A stretch of DNA of 6,076 nucleotides from Candidatus Heimdallarchaeota archaeon (GTDB lineage: Archaea > Asgardarchaeota > Heimdallarchaeia > Heimdallarchaeales > Kariarchaeaceae). A model generated the notes under the pieces. It searched no databases. It had not been told where the DNA came from and was given only the letters and a program-made list of their open reading frames with translations. The translations under genes and the position numbers were made by a program. Of this stretch, positions 1 to 6,076 are shown piece by piece (the first letter of the stretch is position 1; the number at the start of each line of letters is the position of its first letter). The DNA lies in assembly GCA_030149205.1 (NCBI GenBank), contig JASBSB010000012.1, positions 1 to 6,076 of the forward strand, written 5' to 3'.

Positions 1-128
1 TTACCCTCCTCAACCTGCTCTAACTTTTCTGGTTTAACTCCAATTTTCTTTGCTGCCTTATCTATATCCCACCCCATTTTAAGACGACTCCATGTCAATA
101 TTTTTGGATTAACTACAGAGTCTATCAT
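1..128 (-). CDS. Redundant partial copy of the 5' end of the Xre-HTH/ImmA gene (same bases as 5943-6070)
   Basis: ATG at 128-126 reads MIDSVVNPKILTW... and runs off the window edge. It lies within the terminal repeat, so it is not a separate gene if the molecule is circular. Confidence 0.9.
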   Translation of the reverse strand, partial: MIDSVVNPKILTWSRLKMGWDIDKAAKKIGVKPEKLEQVEEG

Positions 129-134
129 ACCTAC
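1..134. repeat. Terminal direct repeat, left copy (134 bp, identical to 5943-6076)
   Basis: TTACCCTCCTCAACC...GTCTATCATACCTAC at 1-134 matches 5943-6076 base for base by direct comparison. Confidence 0.98.
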
Positions 135-164
135 AATTAATAGCTTAATTTATGAACTCATAAA
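135..164. promoter_or_regulatory. Two abutting 16-bp inverted repeats upstream of the HTH-ImmA start; candidate autoregulatory operators
   Basis: AATTAA-TAGC-TTAATT (135-150) and TTTATGA-AC-TCATAAA (149-164) are both perfect and lie 7-36 nt upstream of the ATG at 128. The operator function is inferred. Confidence 0.5.
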
Positions 165-356
165 CCTTCTACTTGATAATTTAACAAAATGAAAAATCTT
201 AATGACGTTGACTTGCAAACCTTTATGGATCTATTGAATCAAATTTCAACCCTTATGTAATTACAACATTTATTCTTGTTATCTCTCAAACTCCGAAGCA
301 AACAATATACATCTGGCTTACGATATTTTTTTATGATATGAAGTGAAAAAAAGACC

Positions 357-1880
357 GTGAAAAAAATATTAGGAAAAATTAGAACAATTAGAAAGATTCA
401 TCAGGTTTACATATTGGAGACCGCGTTTTATCTTCTAATTATTTTTGCCTCATTTATTGAATTCAACTTACAAGCAGAGGTAACTCACTATGTTTCCAAT
501 AAAGTAAATACGTACAGTTTAACGAGTGAAAAAATCAGTTTTCCTCAAATTCATGAAATTCTTCTATTCCCATTAACATTTTGTCTTTATGGAATCGCAC
601 GTATCATCTATAGGTATAAGAAAAAGGTCGCGGCAATATCTTTTGAGTATCTTTATTTTCCATTCGGGGTTTTCATTTTATTTTATCAAGAATTCATCAG
701 ATATTTTCTTTCTAACTTAGTTGGATTTACTGCTCTTTTACTTGCCACCTATTTACCAATATCAATGATATTTGTTAACTTAATAATCCGGGTCAAGTTT
801 GTTTCTTTCTTGATTTTTAAATTATCATTTGTAACTTTATTCTTACTCATAATTTTAACTTTATTAGGAAAAAACATTTATTCACTTTCAAAACATAACC
901 AACATCTTATCTCTGCCACATACCCTGAAAAAACAACTCAGAGGCAATTTATATCAATGGATAAAAACAAAGGTACCCTAGTCGAATTTTTCCTTATTTT
1001 TCTGGTATCTCAGTTAAATGTCATATTGTTCCTTCCTTTTGATTTTATTGGATTCAGAGAGATTGGATGGTTGTTGCATAACACAATAATTGTTCTCAAT
1101 TTAACCCTCTTTGTGCTCCTCTTGGTCTCTTACAGATATTTCTTTGAAAATCACACTACCTTAAAACTAACACATATTATTGTTGAAAGATACAAAATTA
1201 ACTCTGATTTTTCAAGAAAGACTCTAAAATTTGCAATCGTAACACTACAATTTTTGATCGTGGTTATTGCATTTGAACTGGTAGTGTTTAAATTCGGAGG
1301 TCCGTTATACATATTTTTCTTATATCTAGGGGAAAGTCTTCTTAAATACAGTCTTATTTTTATCTTTATTATTATTATAATCATAGCTTTTGAAAAATTC
1401 AACAGAAGAACATTTAGAATAAAGGGAAACAAACTTGTTGTAAGCTCAACTTTAACTGTAATGCTCCTGATTTTAGCCATTATGAGTGGGTCAGTATTTA
1501 CCACATTAAACTCAAATCAATTTATGTTCAAACGACACATGAAACTAACCGTCACAAACATAACCACGACAAACATTGAAGCGTATCTCTCAGCACCTTC
1601 AGGTTATCATCCATCTGCCTATTTCTCAAACATTGTTCTTACAACACAGAACACAGGTGAAATTATTGTGGATAGATGTTTAAATATCACCCAGGTGGTA
1701 AGTAATTCAACCGACGTCTCAGTCAAAAATTATAGTTCACCAATTTTCTACTTTGCCTATCAAAATTCAGGCCGGCTTTGGTTGACAATTACCGTTAATG
1801 AAACTATAATAATCCAGCACCATCAAACAATTCAGTTGGCAAGAATGCTCAATGGGGTTTGCGTACCTTATAGCTACTAA
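357..1880 (+). CDS. Hypothetical multi-pass membrane protein (about 10 hydrophobic segments) with a C-terminal ~125-aa soluble, probably exported domain
   Basis: 507-codon ORF with a GTG start. Repeated 18-28-aa hydrophobic runs extend to about residue 381. The S/T/N/V-rich tail has 5 N-X-S/T sequons (NIT, NIT, NST, NYS, NET) and two Cys. I recognise no family motif, and the start codon is uncertain. Confidence 0.8.
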   Translation: MKKILGKIRTIRKIHQVYILETAFYLLIIFASFIEFNLQAEVTHYVSNKVNTYSLTSEKISFPQIHEILLFPLTFCLYGIARIIYRYKKKVAAISFEYLYFPFGVFILFYQEFIRYFLSNLVGFTALLLATYLPISMIFVNLIIRVKFVSFLIFKLSFVTLFLLIILTLLGKNIYSLSKHNQHLISATYPEKTTQRQFISMDKNKGTLVEFFLIFLVSQLNVILFLPFDFIGFREIGWLLHNTIIVLNLTLFVLLLVSYRYFFENHTTLKLTHIIVERYKINSDFSRKTLKFAIVTLQFLIVVIAFELVVFKFGGPLYIFFLYLGESLLKYSLIFIFIIIIIIAFEKFNRRTFRIKGNKLVVSSTLTVMLLILAIMSGSVFTTLNSNQFMFKRHMKLTVTNITTTNIEAYLSAPSGYHPSAYFSNIVLTTQNTGEIIVDRCLNITQVVSNSTDVSVKNYSSPIFYFAYQNSGRLWLTITVNETIIIQHHQTIQLARMLNGVCVPYSY

Positions 1881-1945
1881 CTAAACAAATACATGGCTCA
1901 TTCATATAATTATTAAGAACTAAGTAAACACAAAAGAAACTAATT

Positions 1946-1994
1946 CTCCACACATCCTTCTGCTAGAATCCTACAGCTGTTTTCAAATTTGTAA
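1946..1994 (+). repeat. 49-bp direct repeat, copy 1 (42/49 identical to 4232-4280); candidate recombination/att-like site
   Basis: CTCCACACATCCTTCTGCTAGAATCCTACAGCTGTTTTCAAATTTGTAA aligns without gaps to copy 2, including a 17-bp exact core CCTTCTGCTAGAATCCT and a 12-bp exact TCAAATTTGTAA. Confidence 0.9.
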
Positions 1995-1999
1995 AAAAT

Positions 2000-2629
2000 T
2001 TATTCTATCTTCCACCTTCGCTCTACTTTTTTTGCTAAAATCATAAGAATTAGTGATGTAAAAAAGCCGGGAAGGATAAAGGAAATTTTATAATCATCTA
2101 CAGGATAGAAAACACTTTTTGCATAGGCTGATTGAAGATGAATTGTACTAACACCTTTGCCAAGGTGTATAAAAATCAATTTAGCCTTATATGGGTCATC
2201 CAGATGTATTTTTGAGTAAGAAACGTTCTCCCCAGACCAGGTGTCCATCAGGTTCAAATACTCCTTTGTCTTGTTATAATCTGTTACTTGAAATTGTGTT
2301 GGATATGGAAACGTTCTGTTAATTGGGTGCGAGAAATTAGTGTACTCATGAAGGTTGATAACCTTACTTTCATTTGCCATAAAAATAACTCTGATAATTG
2401 AGAAATTGGTTGAGAGGGAAACATTCAAACTACTATAAATTACACCGACATGATCAGAAATGTTATATTTCTGTGGAACAACAACCAAAACCTCTTTGAC
2501 ACCAAAACCAGTAAATTTGAATTCTAAGTCTAAAAACGGTGGAGAAGCAAATGAAGGCAAACTGCTACCTGATGCAGTTTGGTTGACTGACAGTACAATC
2601 ATTATTATCACAATAACCTTTAGCTTCAT
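2000..2629 (-). CDS. Secreted, C-terminally membrane-anchored surface (glyco)protein, 209 aa
   Basis: I prefer the start at ATG 2629 (MKLKVIVIIMIVLSV..., signal-peptide-like) over 2713. It overlaps the subtilase stop (ATGA, 2629-2626) and has GGAGGTG 4 nt upstream. The C-terminal hydrophobic helix ISFILPGFFTSLILMILA is followed by KKVERR. 9 of 11 Asn are in N-X-S/T sequons. Confidence 0.8.
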   Translation of the reverse strand: MKLKVIVIIMIVLSVNQTASGSSLPSFASPPFLDLEFKFTGFGVKEVLVVVPQKYNISDHVGVIYSSLNVSLSTNFSIIRVIFMANESKVINLHEYTNFSHPINRTFPYPTQFQVTDYNKTKEYLNLMDTWSGENVSYSKIHLDDPYKAKLIFIHLGKGVSTIHLQSAYAKSVFYPVDDYKISFILPGFFTSLILMILAKKVERRWKIE

Positions 2630-3945
2630 TCCCCACCTCCTGGGAGAGAACCAGCTCCCATCAGATACCCCCAATTCCAAAGCTCTTGATAGACAGATAA
2701 AGCATTTAACCATCCATAACCCATGTGTTGAGTGAAATAATATTGAGATGATACCCCTTTTAATAAGGAATAAAGAGTATCTGTAGAAAGAAGTGGTGGA
2801 TTTCCACCTCCTGCTCCCCGATATCCAATATTATAAGCATAGTTTGCCACCATCACCAACCCCGCAAAATATGGTGTGCTGAAGCTGGTTCCAAAACCAT
2901 AATAGAAAATTCTTTCTAAATTAGTAAAATAGTTAACAATAGGCACTCCATTCCCAGGCATTACGAAATCAATTTTTCGAGAATTATCTTTCTCTGTTGA
3001 ATCTGGTCCATATGACTCACAGAATACGGAAATAGAATCCTTGTCTTTGCATTCAGTTGGATGGTCTTTTGCAAAATCTGAGTTTCCACTATATTGACCC
3101 TTCACTGATTTGTAGTCTAAATCATAATACGTGTAGGGGTACCATCCCCATAAAAGGACCGTTCGATCGCCTCCCCTATTTTCGTGATCTACAGATCCAA
3201 TTCTATATATCAAAGGGTGATTTGCAGGAAAATAATCAGGTCGGTACTGCCCATCATTTCCTGAAGCAGCAATTAACATGACTCCTTTGTTATATATAGA
3301 TTGAATTTTTGAAGTAACATTCGAACTTACCTGACTCATCGGTACTCCTGCTACAAAAGACATGCTTATGGTCTTAATCTGATATCTTGCTATGTTTCGA
3401 TCAAGCCAGTTCCACAATAATGTTTGTTTGTGTAATGCTTCAAATCCATGATCATCACTAAGATCTATATCAACGAATATTATGTTCCCACCTCGAATGA
3501 TACTTGCGTATGCCATAGCCACTCTATATCCATGCGTACTTAACCACCCATATTTTAGAGAACCACCTAAATCACGATCATCAATTCCAGACAAGCTATC
3601 CTTCCCATAATTTCCATATTCGATAATTTTATTCGTAATCTTATCAAAAGTCAAAAATTTAATTATATCAAGAGAAAAAGGCTTTCCAGTATTATAAATG
3701 TACTTTTCTAGGTTTTTATACTCCTCTACTGTTAACCCAGAATCAAGTATTACAGTTGTTCCAAAATAATTTTTATCGACTGGTGTTCTTTCTAGCCACA
3801 AATTGCACCCAATAAAGGAAAGAGCTGGATCTGCACAGTTTTCAACATCCCAGGAAGGGGCAGGAGATAATAAGAATCCCGCAGCTAATGGAAATTCATA
3901 CACTGATTCATCATCCTTAGATTCAACATCTATATTGAGAACCAC
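2626..3945 (-). CDS. S8 family (subtilisin-like) serine peptidase; its probable signal peptide is encoded out of frame at 4012-3946
   Basis: Subtilase motifs appear in canonical order: VILDSG (Asp68), THGYRVA (His138), AASGNDG (oxyanion Asn230), GTSFSTPYFAG (Ser354). ISMSF, YFPA and DFVMPG segments and a C-terminal GYG also fit the family. Confidence 0.92.
   Translation of the reverse strand: MVLNIDVESKDDESVYEFPLAAGFLLSPAPSWDVENCADPALSFIGCNLWLERTPVDKNYFGTTVILDSGLTVEEYKNLEKYIYNTGKPFSLDIIKFLTFDKITNKIIEYGNYGKDSLSGIDDRDLGGSLKYGWLSTHGYRVAMAYASIIRGGNIIFVDIDLSDDHGFEALHKQTLLWNWLDRNIARYQIKTISMSFVAGVPMSQVSSNVTSKIQSIYNKGVMLIAASGNDGQYRPDYFPANHPLIYRIGSVDHENRGGDRTVLLWGWYPYTYYDLDYKSVKGQYSGNSDFAKDHPTECKDKDSISVFCESYGPDSTEKDNSRKIDFVMPGNGVPIVNYFTNLERIFYYGFGTSFSTPYFAGLVMVANYAYNIGYRGAGGGNPPLLSTDTLYSLLKGVSSQYYFTQHMGYGWLNALSVYQELWNWGYLMGAGSLPGGGE
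2634..2640 (-). promoter_or_regulatory. Shine-Dalgarno GGAGGTG for the 2629 start, embedded in the last codons of the subtilase
   Basis: The minus strand reads AGGAGGTGGGGA-ATGA, a strong SD-like sequence in an AT-rich background, with stop/start overlap. Confidence 0.75.
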
Positions 3946-4012
3946 CCCCCCCTCCCGTAAAACTCATAAGGAATAAAATACCTACAATAAAAATTAATTT
4001 AATTCTTATCAT
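3923..4012 (-). CDS. 29-aa ORF MIRIKLIFIVGILFLMSFTGGGGGSQYRC; likely the frameshifted signal-peptide segment of the subtilase
   Basis: ATG at 4012 has a basic n-region and a 13-aa hydrophobic core. It is 67 nt from GTG 3945, one base out of frame. Removing one G from G8 gives MIRIKLIFIVGILFLMSFTGGGVVLNIDVESK..., continuous with the subtilase. Confidence 0.65.
   Translation of the reverse strand: MIRIKLIFIVGILFLMSFTGGGGGSQYRC
3945..3952 (-). repeat. G8 homopolymer (C8 on +) at the signal peptide/subtilase junction
   Basis: Positions 3945-3952 are eight consecutive C, within CCCCCCCCTCCC, in an otherwise AT-rich region. Confidence 0.95.
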
Positions 4013-4231
4013 AGTTAAATCATTCAGTTATATAAATAAAAAATTTATGTATCTAGAAACCTCGATTTTATATTTTTTTCGATTTATGATACAAAATTTG
4101 TCTACATATACCCTAGATTACTAAACTTTAGGAAGTTTGAAAAAAGTATTTGCTGCAATCACAAAGCTGCTAAACTTTAGGTATAAGAATGGGTTGCTCC
4201 CCATTGAGCTGGCAAATGGTATTGTCTCGCG

Positions 4232-4280
4232 CTCTACATACCCTTCTGCTAGAATCCTTCAGTTATTGTCAAATTTGTAA
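4232..4280 (+). repeat. 49-bp direct repeat, copy 2 (42/49 identical to 1946-1994)
   Basis: CTCTACATACCCTTCTGCTAGAATCCTTCAGTTATTGTCAAATTTGTAA lies 2286 bp from copy 1 in the same orientation. Confidence 0.9.
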
Positions 4281-4295
4281 TAAAAAATTATTACA
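4276..4295. terminator. Inverted repeat TGTAATAA-AAAA-TTATTACA containing an A6/T6 tract; possible terminator downstream of the PIN gene, or a protein-binding site
   Basis: The 8-bp arms are perfect with a 4-nt spacer. The minus strand has a T6 run about 95 nt after the PIN stop. Function is inferred only. Confidence 0.35.
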
Positions 4296-4382
4296 TCTTG
4301 CATTTCATTTGAAATAATAAATGGTTCGTTTCGCTAAGGATTAGAGAGTTCACAACACTCAAATCATTATTTACTTTAGATA

Positions 4383-4904
4383 CTACTTAAATTTAGCAAC
4401 CAACTGTAGTAGATTATAGCAGTCAATCCCCTCTAATTTGCATATTTCAGGTATTTTGGTCTTATTGCTCACATCTTGATGCTTAAAATTTTTTAGTCTA
4501 TTTGAGTTACTTTTTTCCTCACTAAGAACAGCATAATTGTTTGCTTTTGCAAGAGCCACAACATGATGATCTGCAATTGTTGAGACATTTGGAGGAATCC
4601 ATTTTGGATATTTTCCCATCAAGTCCTTAAGAATTAAAAGTGAATTCTCCTCGTTTTTTGCTTTGCAGGAATTCGCCAATTGGTAAATAGATAATTTTTC
4701 GTAATTTTTTCCTTTTTTTAGTTCTTCAATTACTGTACGACTTACAACAAAAATGTTATTGCGAGAGCAAAGTCTTAGAATATCCCAAATATCTGGGTTA
4801 TTGTCTTCTGAATAGTATTTTTCGATTTCAATAAAGACAGAGGTGTCAACTGCAAACTTTAATCCTGAAAGAAACAATTTAGAGAAAGACGTCTCAGAAG
4901 GCAT
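4383..4904 (-). CDS. DUF4411-like PIN-domain protein (putative RNase toxin), 173 aa
   Basis: PIN-type acidic residues occur in the expected order: AVDTSVFI, VIEEL, IADHHVVALA, VLSEE. A C-terminal KIPEIC..EGIDC segment is typical of DUF4411 as I recall it. I prefer the start at ATG 4904, 2 nt after the upstream stop with GGAG 10 nt upstream, over 4928. Confidence 0.82.
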   Translation of the reverse strand: MPSETSFSKLFLSGLKFAVDTSVFIEIEKYYSEDNNPDIWDILRLCSRNNIFVVSRTVIEELKKGKNYEKLSIYQLANSCKAKNEENSLLILKDLMGKYPKWIPPNVSTIADHHVVALAKANNYAVLSEEKSNSNRLKNFKHQDVSNKTKIPEICKLEGIDCYNLLQLVAKFK

Positions 4905-4906
4905 GT

Positions 4907-6070
4907 TTACAATTCTCCATTCTCCCACATCTTTTCAAAATGTTCAAGACCCTTCAAACTAAGACCAGATACCCTATAAAGTTCTACATCTGAAATAAAT
5001 TCTTTTTGTTTTGCTTCAAACAGCAGTTTAACAGACCTCCGCCCAAAATCACTTAGATATGTGCTGTAATAGTTCCCCCCTCCTTTCTTTTTAGGACGTA
5101 TCGGGGGTGTGGGAAATGAATCTCTTTGTTTATAAAACAACTTCAAATCCCTAAAGGTGTAATTCACAACTGAATAACTAACTTTAAACCTGTTAGAGAC
5201 TTTATGAAAAATAGTTTGCAACTCTTTTTCAGTCAAATTCATTCGGGAATCATCCCATCCAATTTCAGCTAAGTAATTCCTCAATTCATCATTTGGTAAC
5301 AGAAACAGAGAAGCTGTTTTGTTACAAATTCTTTCAATTTTTGGAATGGAGACTGGAGACTCTTCTGTTAACTTACTATCACCAATGCAAACCCCAGATT
5401 TATTAAGCAGAAGGTGAGTAAGTTCATGTATCAATGTAAAGTTTCTACCATAATAACTGTCCTCTTTGTTTAAAGCAATCAAGGGAAGAGGGGTTTCCGA
5501 AAATGAAAACCCTCTGGTAACTTCTAATGGGATCCCTTTAAATTGAACTGTTAAAATGTCATTGTTTTCTATGAGTTCCCTAATGTAATTTAGAGCTGCG
5601 TTATCTCTTAATTTTATTAATTTGGTATGATCAATCGAAAGTACCTCCTCAACTTTTAGTACCGTGCGCTCTATCGCTTGTTCAATGGATGTGTCCTCTA
5701 TATTTATTGACCCAACAAACTCGTATCTGTTCGTTTTAATTGATTTGAAAATTCCAGCTAGATTCTTTTTTCTTTCATAAAGTTCTCTAATAATAACCTC
5801 AAGCTTAGCAGGAATTTTTGATTTTGTACCTCTAAAATCGGGAAGATTAATGTCCACAGGAGGTTCATCCATGAGAAAGGTTGCTATGGACCTCTTATAT
5901 GCTTTTGATAATTTGAGTAGTTGGTTGAATGTTAGAACCGTCTTACCCTCCTCAACCTGCTCTAACTTTTCTGGTTTAACTCCAATTTTCTTTGCTGCCT
6001 TATCTATATCCCACCCCATTTTAAGACGACTCCATGTCAATATTTTTGGATTAACTACAGAGTCTATCAT
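4907..6070 (-). CDS. Xre-family HTH fused to an ImmA/IrrE (peptidase M78, COG2856-type) Zn metallopeptidase; putative antitoxin/regulator
   Basis: N-terminal HTH (LTWSRLKMGWDIDKAAKKIGVKPEKLEQVEEGK...LLKLSKAY) followed by PDFR. It has RNFTLIHELTH (HEXXH, H215/E216/H219) and ERICNKTASLFLLP (third-ligand Glu motif). Confidence 0.92.
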   Translation of the reverse strand: MIDSVVNPKILTWSRLKMGWDIDKAAKKIGVKPEKLEQVEEGKTVLTFNQLLKLSKAYKRSIATFLMDEPPVDINLPDFRGTKSKIPAKLEVIIRELYERKKNLAGIFKSIKTNRYEFVGSINIEDTSIEQAIERTVLKVEEVLSIDHTKLIKLRDNAALNYIRELIENNDILTVQFKGIPLEVTRGFSFSETPLPLIALNKEDSYYGRNFTLIHELTHLLLNKSGVCIGDSKLTEESPVSIPKIERICNKTASLFLLPNDELRNYLAEIGWDDSRMNLTEKELQTIFHKVSNRFKVSYSVVNYTFRDLKLFYKQRDSFPTPPIRPKKKGGGNYYSTYLSDFGRRSVKLLFEAKQKEFISDVELYRVSGLSLKGLEHFEKMWENGEL

Positions 6071-6076
6071 ACCTAC
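5943..6076. repeat. Terminal direct repeat, right copy (134 bp); implies a 5942-bp circular or tandem unit
   Basis: Identical to 1-134. Joining the ends places the 135-356 intergenic region directly upstream of the HTH-peptidase start codon. Confidence 0.98.

What the first reader, a model, noticed from the sequence alone, without database searches (positions are those of the whole stretch)
1..6076. Window closes into a 5942-bp circle with no Rep, integrase or transposase
Seen: the 134-bp terminal repeat is exact and falls inside a gene. Closing the circle gives the HTH-ImmA gene an upstream region with operator-like palindromes, divergent from the 507-aa gene. Seen: none of the five genes carries replication or recombinase motifs I recognise. 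Inference: this is a non-autonomous excised circle or cassette intermediate, a satellite-like element that borrows host or helper functions, a unit of a tandem array, or a de Bruijn/overlap loop. 134 bp is not one of the k-mer sizes I most associate with common assemblers, but that does not exclude an artefact.
Basis: partly seen in the sequence, partly recalled or inferred. Interest (0 to 1): 0.7.

Follow-up and report, generated by a model that had tools for sequence, protein, structure and literature searches.

The report
Assembly-graph loop, not a circle
The apparent 5.9-kb circle is what a k=141 de Bruijn assembler leaves when a chromosomal segment lies between two copies of a 148-bp exact repeat, so it is most likely an ordinary piece of an Asgard archaeon's defence island, not a free replicon.

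Summary
Bases 1-134 equal 5943-6076 exactly, the repeat covers codons 1-42 of the HTH-ImmA gene, and no Rep, integrase or transposase was found.

The circle does not follow from this. The window is a whole contig (C6) of a 12-contig Heimdall-group MAG. The same 134 bp also ends contig C5 and starts the reverse complement of C11. The shared exact block is 148 nt, running 5936-6076 and then 1-141.

C6 starts exactly 141 nt before the first mismatch with C11 and ends exactly 141 nt after the first mismatch with C5. Nearly every contig end in this assembly shares its terminal 141-mer with another contig end, which is the mark of a k=141 de Bruijn graph. The figure 134 is simply 2x141-148.

Logan k-mer depths are 71-75 for C6, 80.7 for C5 and about 76-79 for C11. 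This argues against a multicopy element or a tandem array.

C5 and C11 carry HerA, PLD/helicase, CARF and type I-B cas genes plus a CRISPR array. C6 holds two relics of a C5 gene's 3' end.

The best reading is the linear order C5-C6-C11rc inside a rearranged defence island. Occasional excision by recombination between the repeats cannot be excluded without reads. An earlier scan report reached the same kind of verdict for contig C3.

The parts
1..134 (.). Left copy of the 134-bp terminal overlap. It is part of a 148-nt exact repeat (5936-6076 then 1-141) that is also found at the end of C5 and at the start of C11 reverse complement.
5936..6076 (.). The terminal 141-mer of the contig, identical to the last 141 nt of C5. 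The first mismatch with C5 is at 5935 (G here, A in C5). This is the in-fork k-mer of the graph.
   Evidence: (table 3)
1..141 (.). The initial 141-mer of the contig, identical to the first 141 nt of C11 reverse complement. The first mismatch is at 142 (A here, T in C11). This is the out-fork k-mer of the graph.
135..356 (.). Divergent intergenic (promoter) region. Positions 135-197 are identical to the C11 copy except for one SNP, and the rest is about 80% identical. Short palindromes at 135-150 (AATTAA-N4-TTAATT) and 149-164 (TTTATGA-AC-TCATAAA) are kept in both copies.
357..1880 (+). Gene for a 507-aa protein that by its sequence looks like a polytopic membrane protein (reading, not computed). 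No family matches. Its only homologue among 5.8 billion proteins is the 512-aa paralogue on C11 (42% aa identity).
1945..1994 (+). 50-nt relic of the 3' end of the C5 gene 5966-7291 (98% identical, 41 nt exact), ending at that gene's stop codon.
2000..2629 (-). Gene for a 209-aa protein, read here as exported and rich in N-glycosylation sequons. Its start overlaps the stop of the subtilase gene. No family matches.
2626..3945 (-). Gene for a 439-aa Peptidase_S8 (subtilase) family protein.
   Evidence: (PF00082, 1.1e-07)
4137..4280 (+). 47-codon relic of the C-terminus of a homologue of the 441-aa C5 protein (74% aa identity, 85% nt identity over 4147-4281).
4383..4928 (-). Gene for a 181-aa DUF4411 protein (regarded as PIN-like; my knowledge), the putative toxin partner. 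It overlaps the end of the upstream HTH-ImmA gene by 22 nt.
   Evidence: (PF14367, 4.2e-16)
4907..6070 (-). Gene for a 387-aa XRE-type HTH + M78/ImmA metallopeptidase (HELTH motif). It resembles RmrA, the RosmerTA antitoxin/repressor.
   Evidence: PF06114 1.1e-14, PF01381 4.9e-06; RmrA 5.8e-13; spr1629-family antitoxin, far below its cut-off

Best explanation
C6 is a unitig of a k=141 de Bruijn assembly. It begins and ends inside one 148-nt exact repeat that occurs twice in the chromosome of a Heimdall-group Asgard archaeon.

The repeat is the 5' end of an XRE-HTH gene plus the first bases of its divergent promoter. One copy heads a truncated 63-codon HTH gene at the end of C5. The other heads the full HTH-ImmA gene at the end of C6. 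Each copy faces a paralogous membrane-protein gene: 507 aa on C6 and 512 aa on C11.

The repeat is longer than k, so the graph has a node with two ways in (C5, C6) and two ways out (C6, C11rc). The assembler printed C6 with both fork k-mers, and these overlap by 134 nt.

The most likely true order is linear, C5 - C6 - C11rc. This would be a roughly 41-kb stretch of a defence/variable island built by duplication and accretion of alternative cassettes.

Shown: the graph geometry, the shared ends, the depths and the gene content. Inferred: the linear order, and gene conversion as the reason for the exact core.
For: (1) Shared ends. The same 134 bp ends C5 and starts C11rc.

(2) Geometry. C5 and C6 share exactly 141 terminal nt, and C6 and C11rc share exactly 141 initial nt. 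The first mismatches are at 5935 and 142.

(3) Assembly-wide pattern. 19 of the 24 contig ends share their terminal 141-mer with another contig end. Of the other five, four lie in or within about 35 nt of a CRISPR array. This break pattern is therefore general in this assembly.

(4) Depth. Logan contig depths are 71.3 and 74.5 for the C6 body and 80.7 for the C5 end. The repeat contig is at 134.6. A 41-nt stretch shared only by C6 and C11 is at 150.5, which puts C11 at about 76-79. C6 is thus present about once per flanking contig.

(5) Chromosomal flanks. C5 and C11 carry radical SAM, epimerase, HerA, PLD/DrmC-like, SF1 helicase, CARF, Cas3/Cas5/Cas7 and a CRISPR array. C5 also shares a fork 141-mer with C10, and C10 shares one with the 123-kb C9.

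(6) Local history. C6 contains two relics of the 3' end of the C5 gene 5966-7291, one of them 98% identical. This points to origin at this chromosomal locus.

(7) No maintenance genes. No Rep, integrase, transposase, tRNA or known RNA was found, so nothing in C6 could maintain a circle at about one copy per genome.

(8) No targeting. None of the 140 repeat-spacer units extracted from the genome's six CRISPR arrays matches C6.
Against: No read or contig spans the 148-nt repeat, so the pairing of flanks is not observed directly (one search shows no joints). The alternative (C5-C11rc chromosome plus a C6 circle) fits the same graph.

C6 depth is 5-12% below its flanks. This could be noise, or it could mean that part of the population lacks the segment.

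Logan depths are one mean per contig, and the tool warns that they are not copy numbers.

The main chromosome's depth was not obtained.
Confidence: 0.8

Rival explanations
1. Mixed state. C6 is integrated in most cells. It is occasionally lost, or looped out as a non-replicating 5,942-bp circle, by homologous recombination between the two 148-204-bp direct repeats. The population would then contain linear, empty-site and circular forms.
For: The segment is flanked by direct repeats of 148 nt exact identity, or 204 nt with one SNP. C6 depth is 5-12% below C5 and C11. Integrated Asgard elements that coexist with circular forms are described, including a 2.6-kb mini element (PMC11529989).
Against: No junction evidence of any kind exists. 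The depth difference is within what contig-mean k-mer depths can vary by. There is no recombinase in C6, and none was found among the C5 and C11 genes scanned (C11 1-6600 not scanned).
Confidence: 0.12
2. C6 is a separate circular episome (plasmid-like or satellite-like) that shares the 148-bp block with the chromosome, where C5 joins C11rc directly.
For: The graph allows this pairing. C6-like DNA and the 507-aa protein were not found in 40 related genomes, so the segment is accessory. It carries a toxin-antitoxin-like addiction module.
Against: There is no replication, partition or recombination gene. Depth is about equal to the flanks, not independent of them. Two relics of a chromosomal gene's 3' end lie inside C6. 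The overlap is 134 nt and runs through a node shared with other contigs; I would expect a private loop to overlap by 141 nt (my inference about the assembler). No CRISPR spacer targets it.
Confidence: 0.05
3. C6 is the unit of a tandem array with two or more copies.
For: A terminal overlap is what a collapsed tandem array gives in a graph.
Against: C6 depth (71-75) is not above that of C5 (80.7) or C11 (about 76-79). The repeat node is at about 2x, not 3x or more.
Confidence: 0.02

Closest known systems
Repeat-induced loop in a de Bruijn assembly graph (false 'circular' contig)
   Same: The contig ends lie exactly k = 141 from the first mismatch. The terminal k-mers are shared with other contigs. 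The same pattern occurs at nearly all contig ends of the assembly. The repeat node is at about twice the depth.
   Different: The overlap is 134, not k, because the intervening 148-nt repeat unitig is missing from the assembly. It was probably shorter than the minimum contig length (inference).
Integrated Asgard mobile elements that coexist with circular forms (Yucahu-i and mini-Yucahu-i of Atabeyarchaeia; PMC11529989)
   Same: Both are small accessory segments in an Asgard chromosome bounded by direct repeats. The mini element likewise lacks an obvious replication gene.
   Different: Those elements were shown by reads spanning circular and empty-site junctions. They have an 11-bp attachment motif and integrases on the parent element. 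Here there are no junction reads and no integrase, and the repeat is a 148-nt core within about 2 kb of paralogous sequence.
RosmerTA (RmrT/RmrA) toxin-antitoxin phage-defence systems (PMC10440598; bioRxiv 10.1101/2022.05.11.491447)
   Same: The antitoxin-like protein has an N-terminal HTH and an ImmA/M78 protease domain (13 RmrA/capP PADLOC models hit, best RmrA 5.8e-13). It is paired with an adjacent, overlapping small gene. ImmA antitoxin nodes are reported to pair with PIN-like toxins.
   Different: The partner is DUF4411, which matched no PADLOC RmrT model. The host is an archaeon. Function is untested.

Membership tests
De Bruijn graph repeat loop (assembly artefact) | Contig ends lie exactly k bases beyond the first base that differs from another contig | tested here: met
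   C5 and C6 share exactly 141 terminal nt, and C6 and C11rc share exactly 141 initial nt. The mismatches are at 5935 and 142.
De Bruijn graph repeat loop (assembly artefact) | The terminal repeat is shared with other contigs (extra in- and out-edges) | tested here: met
   The same 134 bp is at C5 9043-9176 and at C11 26574-26441.
De Bruijn graph repeat loop (assembly artefact) | The same k-sized sharing is seen at other contig ends of the assembly | tested here: met
   19 of 24 contig ends share their terminal 141-mer with another end. Four of the other five ends lie in or next to CRISPR arrays.
De Bruijn graph repeat loop (assembly artefact) | The repeat node has about the summed depth of its neighbours, and the loop has about the depth of its flanks | tested here: met
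   Depths are 134.6 for the repeat, 71-75 for C6, 80.7 for C5 and 150.5 for C6+C11 together. These are contig-mean k-mer depths only.
Autonomous circular replicon (plasmid or virus) | Replication initiator, or other replication or partition gene | tested here: not met
   No such hit in Pfam, NCBIfam, PHROGs or PADLOC.
Autonomous circular replicon (plasmid or virus) | Reads or contigs spanning the closing junction, with no other flank | tested here: not met
   No joint was seen in the Logan contigs, and other flanks exist. Raw reads were not available.
Integrative element or excised circle | Integrase or recombinase on the element or beside it | tested here: not met
   None was found in C6 or among the C5 and C11 6575-26574 genes scanned. 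The genes of C11 1-6600 were listed but not scanned.
Integrative element or excised circle | [quoted passage not shown] | tested here: inconclusive
   148-nt exact direct repeats would flank C6 in the linear order. However, they sit within about 2 kb of diverged paralogy, which is more like a duplication than an att core.
Integrative element or excised circle | Empty-site and circular junctions present in the population | not testable with these tools
   Only k=31 Logan contigs of the source run could be laid.
RosmerTA-like toxin-antitoxin pair | HTH + ImmA/M78 zinc peptidase antitoxin with an HExxH motif | tested here: met
   PF01381 and PF06114 match, RmrA models match, and the HELTH motif is in the translation.
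RosmerTA-like toxin-antitoxin pair | Adjacent co-oriented toxin gene; toxicity and neutralisation; phage defence | tested here: inconclusive
   An adjacent DUF4411 gene overlaps by 22 nt. The same pair occurs in relatives G003 and G004. There is no RmrT model hit, and activity is not testable here.

The most novel reading that the evidence does not exclude
The 5.9-kb segment is a real excisable cassette of an Asgard defence island. Recombination between the 148-204-bp repeats (the HTH gene's 5' end plus its operator) loops it out as a non-replicating circle. The conserved 'handles' (the HTH 5' end and the 3' end of the HerA-partner gene, with relics at 1945-1994 and 4137-4280) let alternative cassettes be swapped or stacked at this locus without a dedicated recombinase.
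Probability: 0.1. Interest if true: 0.45.

Novelty: not a real feature. Interest (0 to 1): 0.1.

Why it matters
If taken at face value, this contig would be reported as a replication-gene-free circular element of an Asgard archaeon. That would be a striking claim for a group in which few plasmids or small mobile elements are known.

The terminal overlap is an arithmetical by-product of k=141 graph forks, so that claim should not be made. The same test can screen other 'circular' contigs: check whether the terminal k-mer is shared with other contigs, and whether the ends lie exactly k from the first mismatch.

What remains is ordinary. It is a rearranged defence or variable island with a RosmerTA-like pair, a subtilase operon and an orphan pair of membrane-protein paralogues.

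Tried and rejected
- **Logan contigs of the likely source run X1.** With k=31 they break at the repeat, so there was no joint across it. They gave only contig depths and loose ends leading into C5 sequence.
- **Exact-protein look-ups of the 387-aa and 507-aa products in public assemblies.** Neither is on record.
- **A 51-nt piece of the repeat in JGI metagenome contigs and IMG/VR.** No match, so there is no independent assembly of the junctions.
- **DNA search of C6 in 40 related genomes.** Only chance-level short matches, so no synteny test was possible.
- **The 507-aa protein in 40 relatives, the 5.8-billion-protein collection and the ESM Atlas.** Only the C11 paralogue was found.
- **Homologues of the C5 441-aa protein in same-genus genomes.** Its C-terminal ~190 aa occur there as separate ORFs in unrelated contexts. 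There was no integrase beside them, and nothing that placed C5 next to C11.
- **PLD-protein homologues in relatives.** They lie in other contexts and were uninformative.
- **CRISPR spacers of this genome against C6.** Only 11-17-nt chance matches.
- **Palindrome count in 129-356 against shuffles.** Not clearly enriched.
Full report
**1. The observation**

The window has an exact 134-nt direct repeat at its two ends (1-134 = 5943-6076). The repeat lies in the 5' end of a minus-strand gene (6070-4907, 387 aa) and covers its ATG, codons 1-42 and six upstream bases.

The plausible genes are:
- a 507-aa protein that reads as a polytopic membrane protein (357-1880, +);
- a 209-aa protein that reads as exported and sequon-rich (2000-2629, -), whose start overlaps the stop of the next gene;
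- a 439-aa Peptidase_S8 protein (2626-3945, -);
- a 181-aa DUF4411 protein (4383-4928, -);
- the 387-aa HTH_3 + Peptidase_M78 protein.

No Rep, integrase or transposase model matched in Pfam, PADLOC, NCBIfam or PHROGs. There is no tRNA, Rfam family or tandem repeat.

**2.

The window is a complete contig, C6, of a 12-contig, 3.31-Mb genome (93.5% complete). Earlier notes of this scan call the organism a Heimdall-group Asgard archaeon. The likely source run is a sediment metagenome.

The same 134 nt is also the 3' end of contig C5 (9043-9176) and the beginning of C11 in reverse complement (26574-26441). The repeat therefore has two ways in (C5, C6) and two ways out (C6, C11rc). This topology fits two resolutions equally well: the linear path C5-C6-C11rc, or a C5-C11rc chromosome plus a separate C6 circle.

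**3. Why the overlap is 134**

Alignment of the flanks shows that the exact shared block is 148 nt, running 5936-6076 and on through 1-141. The first mismatches are at 5935 (G in C6, A in C5) and at 142 (A in C6, T in C11).

C5 and C6 share exactly 141 terminal nt. C6 and C11rc share exactly 141 initial nt. Each contig thus stops exactly 141 nt past the last base that distinguishes it. The two fork 141-mers overlap by 2x141-148 = 134.

The same signature runs through the assembly:
- C1 and C2 share their first 141-mer.
- C1 and C4 share their last 141-mer.
- C2 and C7 both end with the first 141 nt of C3, and diverge at exactly base 142 from the end.
- The C3 end matches the C7 start in reverse complement.
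- The C5 start matches the C10 end in reverse complement.
- C9 and C10 share their start.
- The C8 end matches the C12 start in reverse complement.

That is 19 of 24 ends. Four of the remaining five lie in or within about 35 nt of a CRISPR array (C4 start, C8 start, C9 end, C11 start).

This is the mark of a k=141 de Bruijn assembly. From my own knowledge, 141 is the default largest k of MEGAHIT, which drops contigs under 200 nt; that would explain why the 148-nt node is missing. This last point is inference. An earlier report of this scan reached the same kind of verdict for contig C3 (e1-5423267). I re-checked only the shared 141-mers at the C3 ends.

**4. Copy number**

Only Logan's k=31 contigs of the probable source run could be laid. 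None crosses the repeat. Their mean k-mer depths are still informative:
- C6 body: 71.3 (291-1865) and 74.5 (1965-5965).
- The contig continuing into C5: 80.7.
- The repeat contig: 134.6.
- A 41-nt stretch (1836-1876): 150.5.

I showed that the 41-nt stretch is shared only by C6 and C11, which places C11 at about 76-79. C6 is therefore present at about 0.9-0.95 of its two candidate flanks.

This argues against a tandem array and a multicopy element. It is what an integrated single copy gives automatically. A circle with no replication gene would have to sit at nearly one copy per chromosome by coincidence. The tool warns that such depths are contig means, so I treat this as moderate evidence.

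**5. The neighbourhood**

C5 encodes a radical-SAM protein, an epimerase, a DNA-alkylation-repair protein, and a HerA-type ATPase followed by a 441-aa protein of no known family. Two further proteins of no known family (372 and 130 aa) follow. At its very end is a 63-codon HTH gene, 90% identical to the first 62 residues of the C6 HTH-ImmA protein.

C11rc begins with the same HTH start. It continues with a conserved intergenic region and a 512-aa paralogue of the 507-aa gene (42% aa identity). After that come a zinc-ribbon protein, a PLD/DrmC-like nuclease, an SF1 helicase, two CARF proteins, Cas7, Cas5 and Cas3, and a CRISPR array.

This is a chromosomal defence island. C5 also shares a fork k-mer with C10, and C10 shares one with the 123-kb C9.

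C6 fits this setting. Its HTH-ImmA protein matches 12 PADLOC RmrA models, the antitoxin of RosmerTA (best 5.8e-13). ImmA-type antitoxins are reported to pair with PIN-like toxins (PMC10440598). The HTH-ImmA/DUF4411 pair recurs in relatives G003 and G004 in other contexts.

**6. Signs of local history**

C6 contains two relics of the 3' end of the C5 gene 5966-7291. One is 50 nt at 1945-1994 (98% identical, 41 nt exact). The other is a 47-codon piece at 4137-4280 (74% aa identity).

The homology between the two repeat copies extends over about 2 kb: the HTH 5' end, the intergenic region and the membrane gene. It is mosaic, with 204 nt carrying one SNP in the centre, about 80% identity beside it, and 42% protein identity over the membrane gene.

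The simplest reading is a locus built by duplication and stacking of alternative cassettes, with recent gene conversion or crossover at the HTH/promoter core. A segment that carries relics of its chromosomal neighbour's gene is most easily explained as chromosomal.

The upstream region that 'closing the circle' gives the HTH-ImmA gene is supplied equally well by C11rc. It includes both short palindromes (135-150, 149-164) and a divergent membrane-protein gene.

**7. What stays open**

No data here phase the two sides of the repeat. I cannot exclude that some cells have lost the segment, or that it loops out by recombination between the repeats. Integrated and circular forms do coexist for some Asgard elements (PMC11529989).

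C6-like DNA and the 507-aa protein were not found in 40 related genomes, so the segment is accessory. No CRISPR spacer of this genome matches it.

**8. Verdict**

The terminal repeat is real. The circle is an assembly-graph loop. The most likely structure is C5-C6-C11rc (about 0.8), and occasional excision is the main rival (about 0.1). Interest is low. The useful by-product is a simple rule for rejecting such false circles.

Noticed in passing
window 357-1880; G000 C11 24697-26217 (L016 18120-19658, minus): The 507-aa protein and its 512-aa paralogue on C11 (42% identity) are each other's only homologues among 5.8 billion proteins. Neither was found in 40 related genomes. They are an orphan pair, and each is divergently transcribed from an HTH gene.
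   Followed up: partly
window 1945-1994 and 4137-4280; L015 (C5) 5966-7291: Two relics of the 3' end of the 441-aa gene that follows a HerA-type ATPase on C5. One is 98% identical over 50 nt. The other is a 47-codon fragment of a diverged allele. In three same-genus genomes the C-terminal ~190 aa of this protein occur as separate ORFs.
   Followed up: partly
L015 (C5) 8979-9170, minus strand: A 63-codon HTH-only gene, 90% identical to residues 1-62 of the C6 HTH-ImmA protein. It is either a truncated relic or a stand-alone repressor that would recognise the same operator.
   Followed up: partly
window 5936-6076 plus 1-197, compared with C5 and C11: The identity profile is mosaic. 204 nt with a single SNP are embedded in about 80% identical flanks, which suggests recent gene conversion or a crossover at the HTH start and promoter.
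   Followed up: no
all contig ends of G000: 19 of 24 contig ends share an exact terminal 141-mer with another end. Four of the other five lie in or beside CRISPR arrays (C4 22-2444, C8 8-1981, C9 120791-123281, C11 30-515). Any 'closed unit' reading of the small contigs (C3, C5, C6, C10) should be checked against this.
   Followed up: yes
L015 (C5) 3989-7291: A HerA/DUF87 ATPase (PADLOC HerA models, best 1.1e-22) is followed directly by a 441-aa protein with no family hit. This is a possible two-gene HerA-partnered defence system.
   Followed up: no
L016 (C11) 10970-16336: An SF1 helicase (AAA_11/AAA_12, 936 aa), a 350-aa protein of no known family and a 505-aa PLD/DrmC-like protein lie in one row, next to two CARF proteins and type I-B cas genes. 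This is a further candidate defence module.
   Followed up: no
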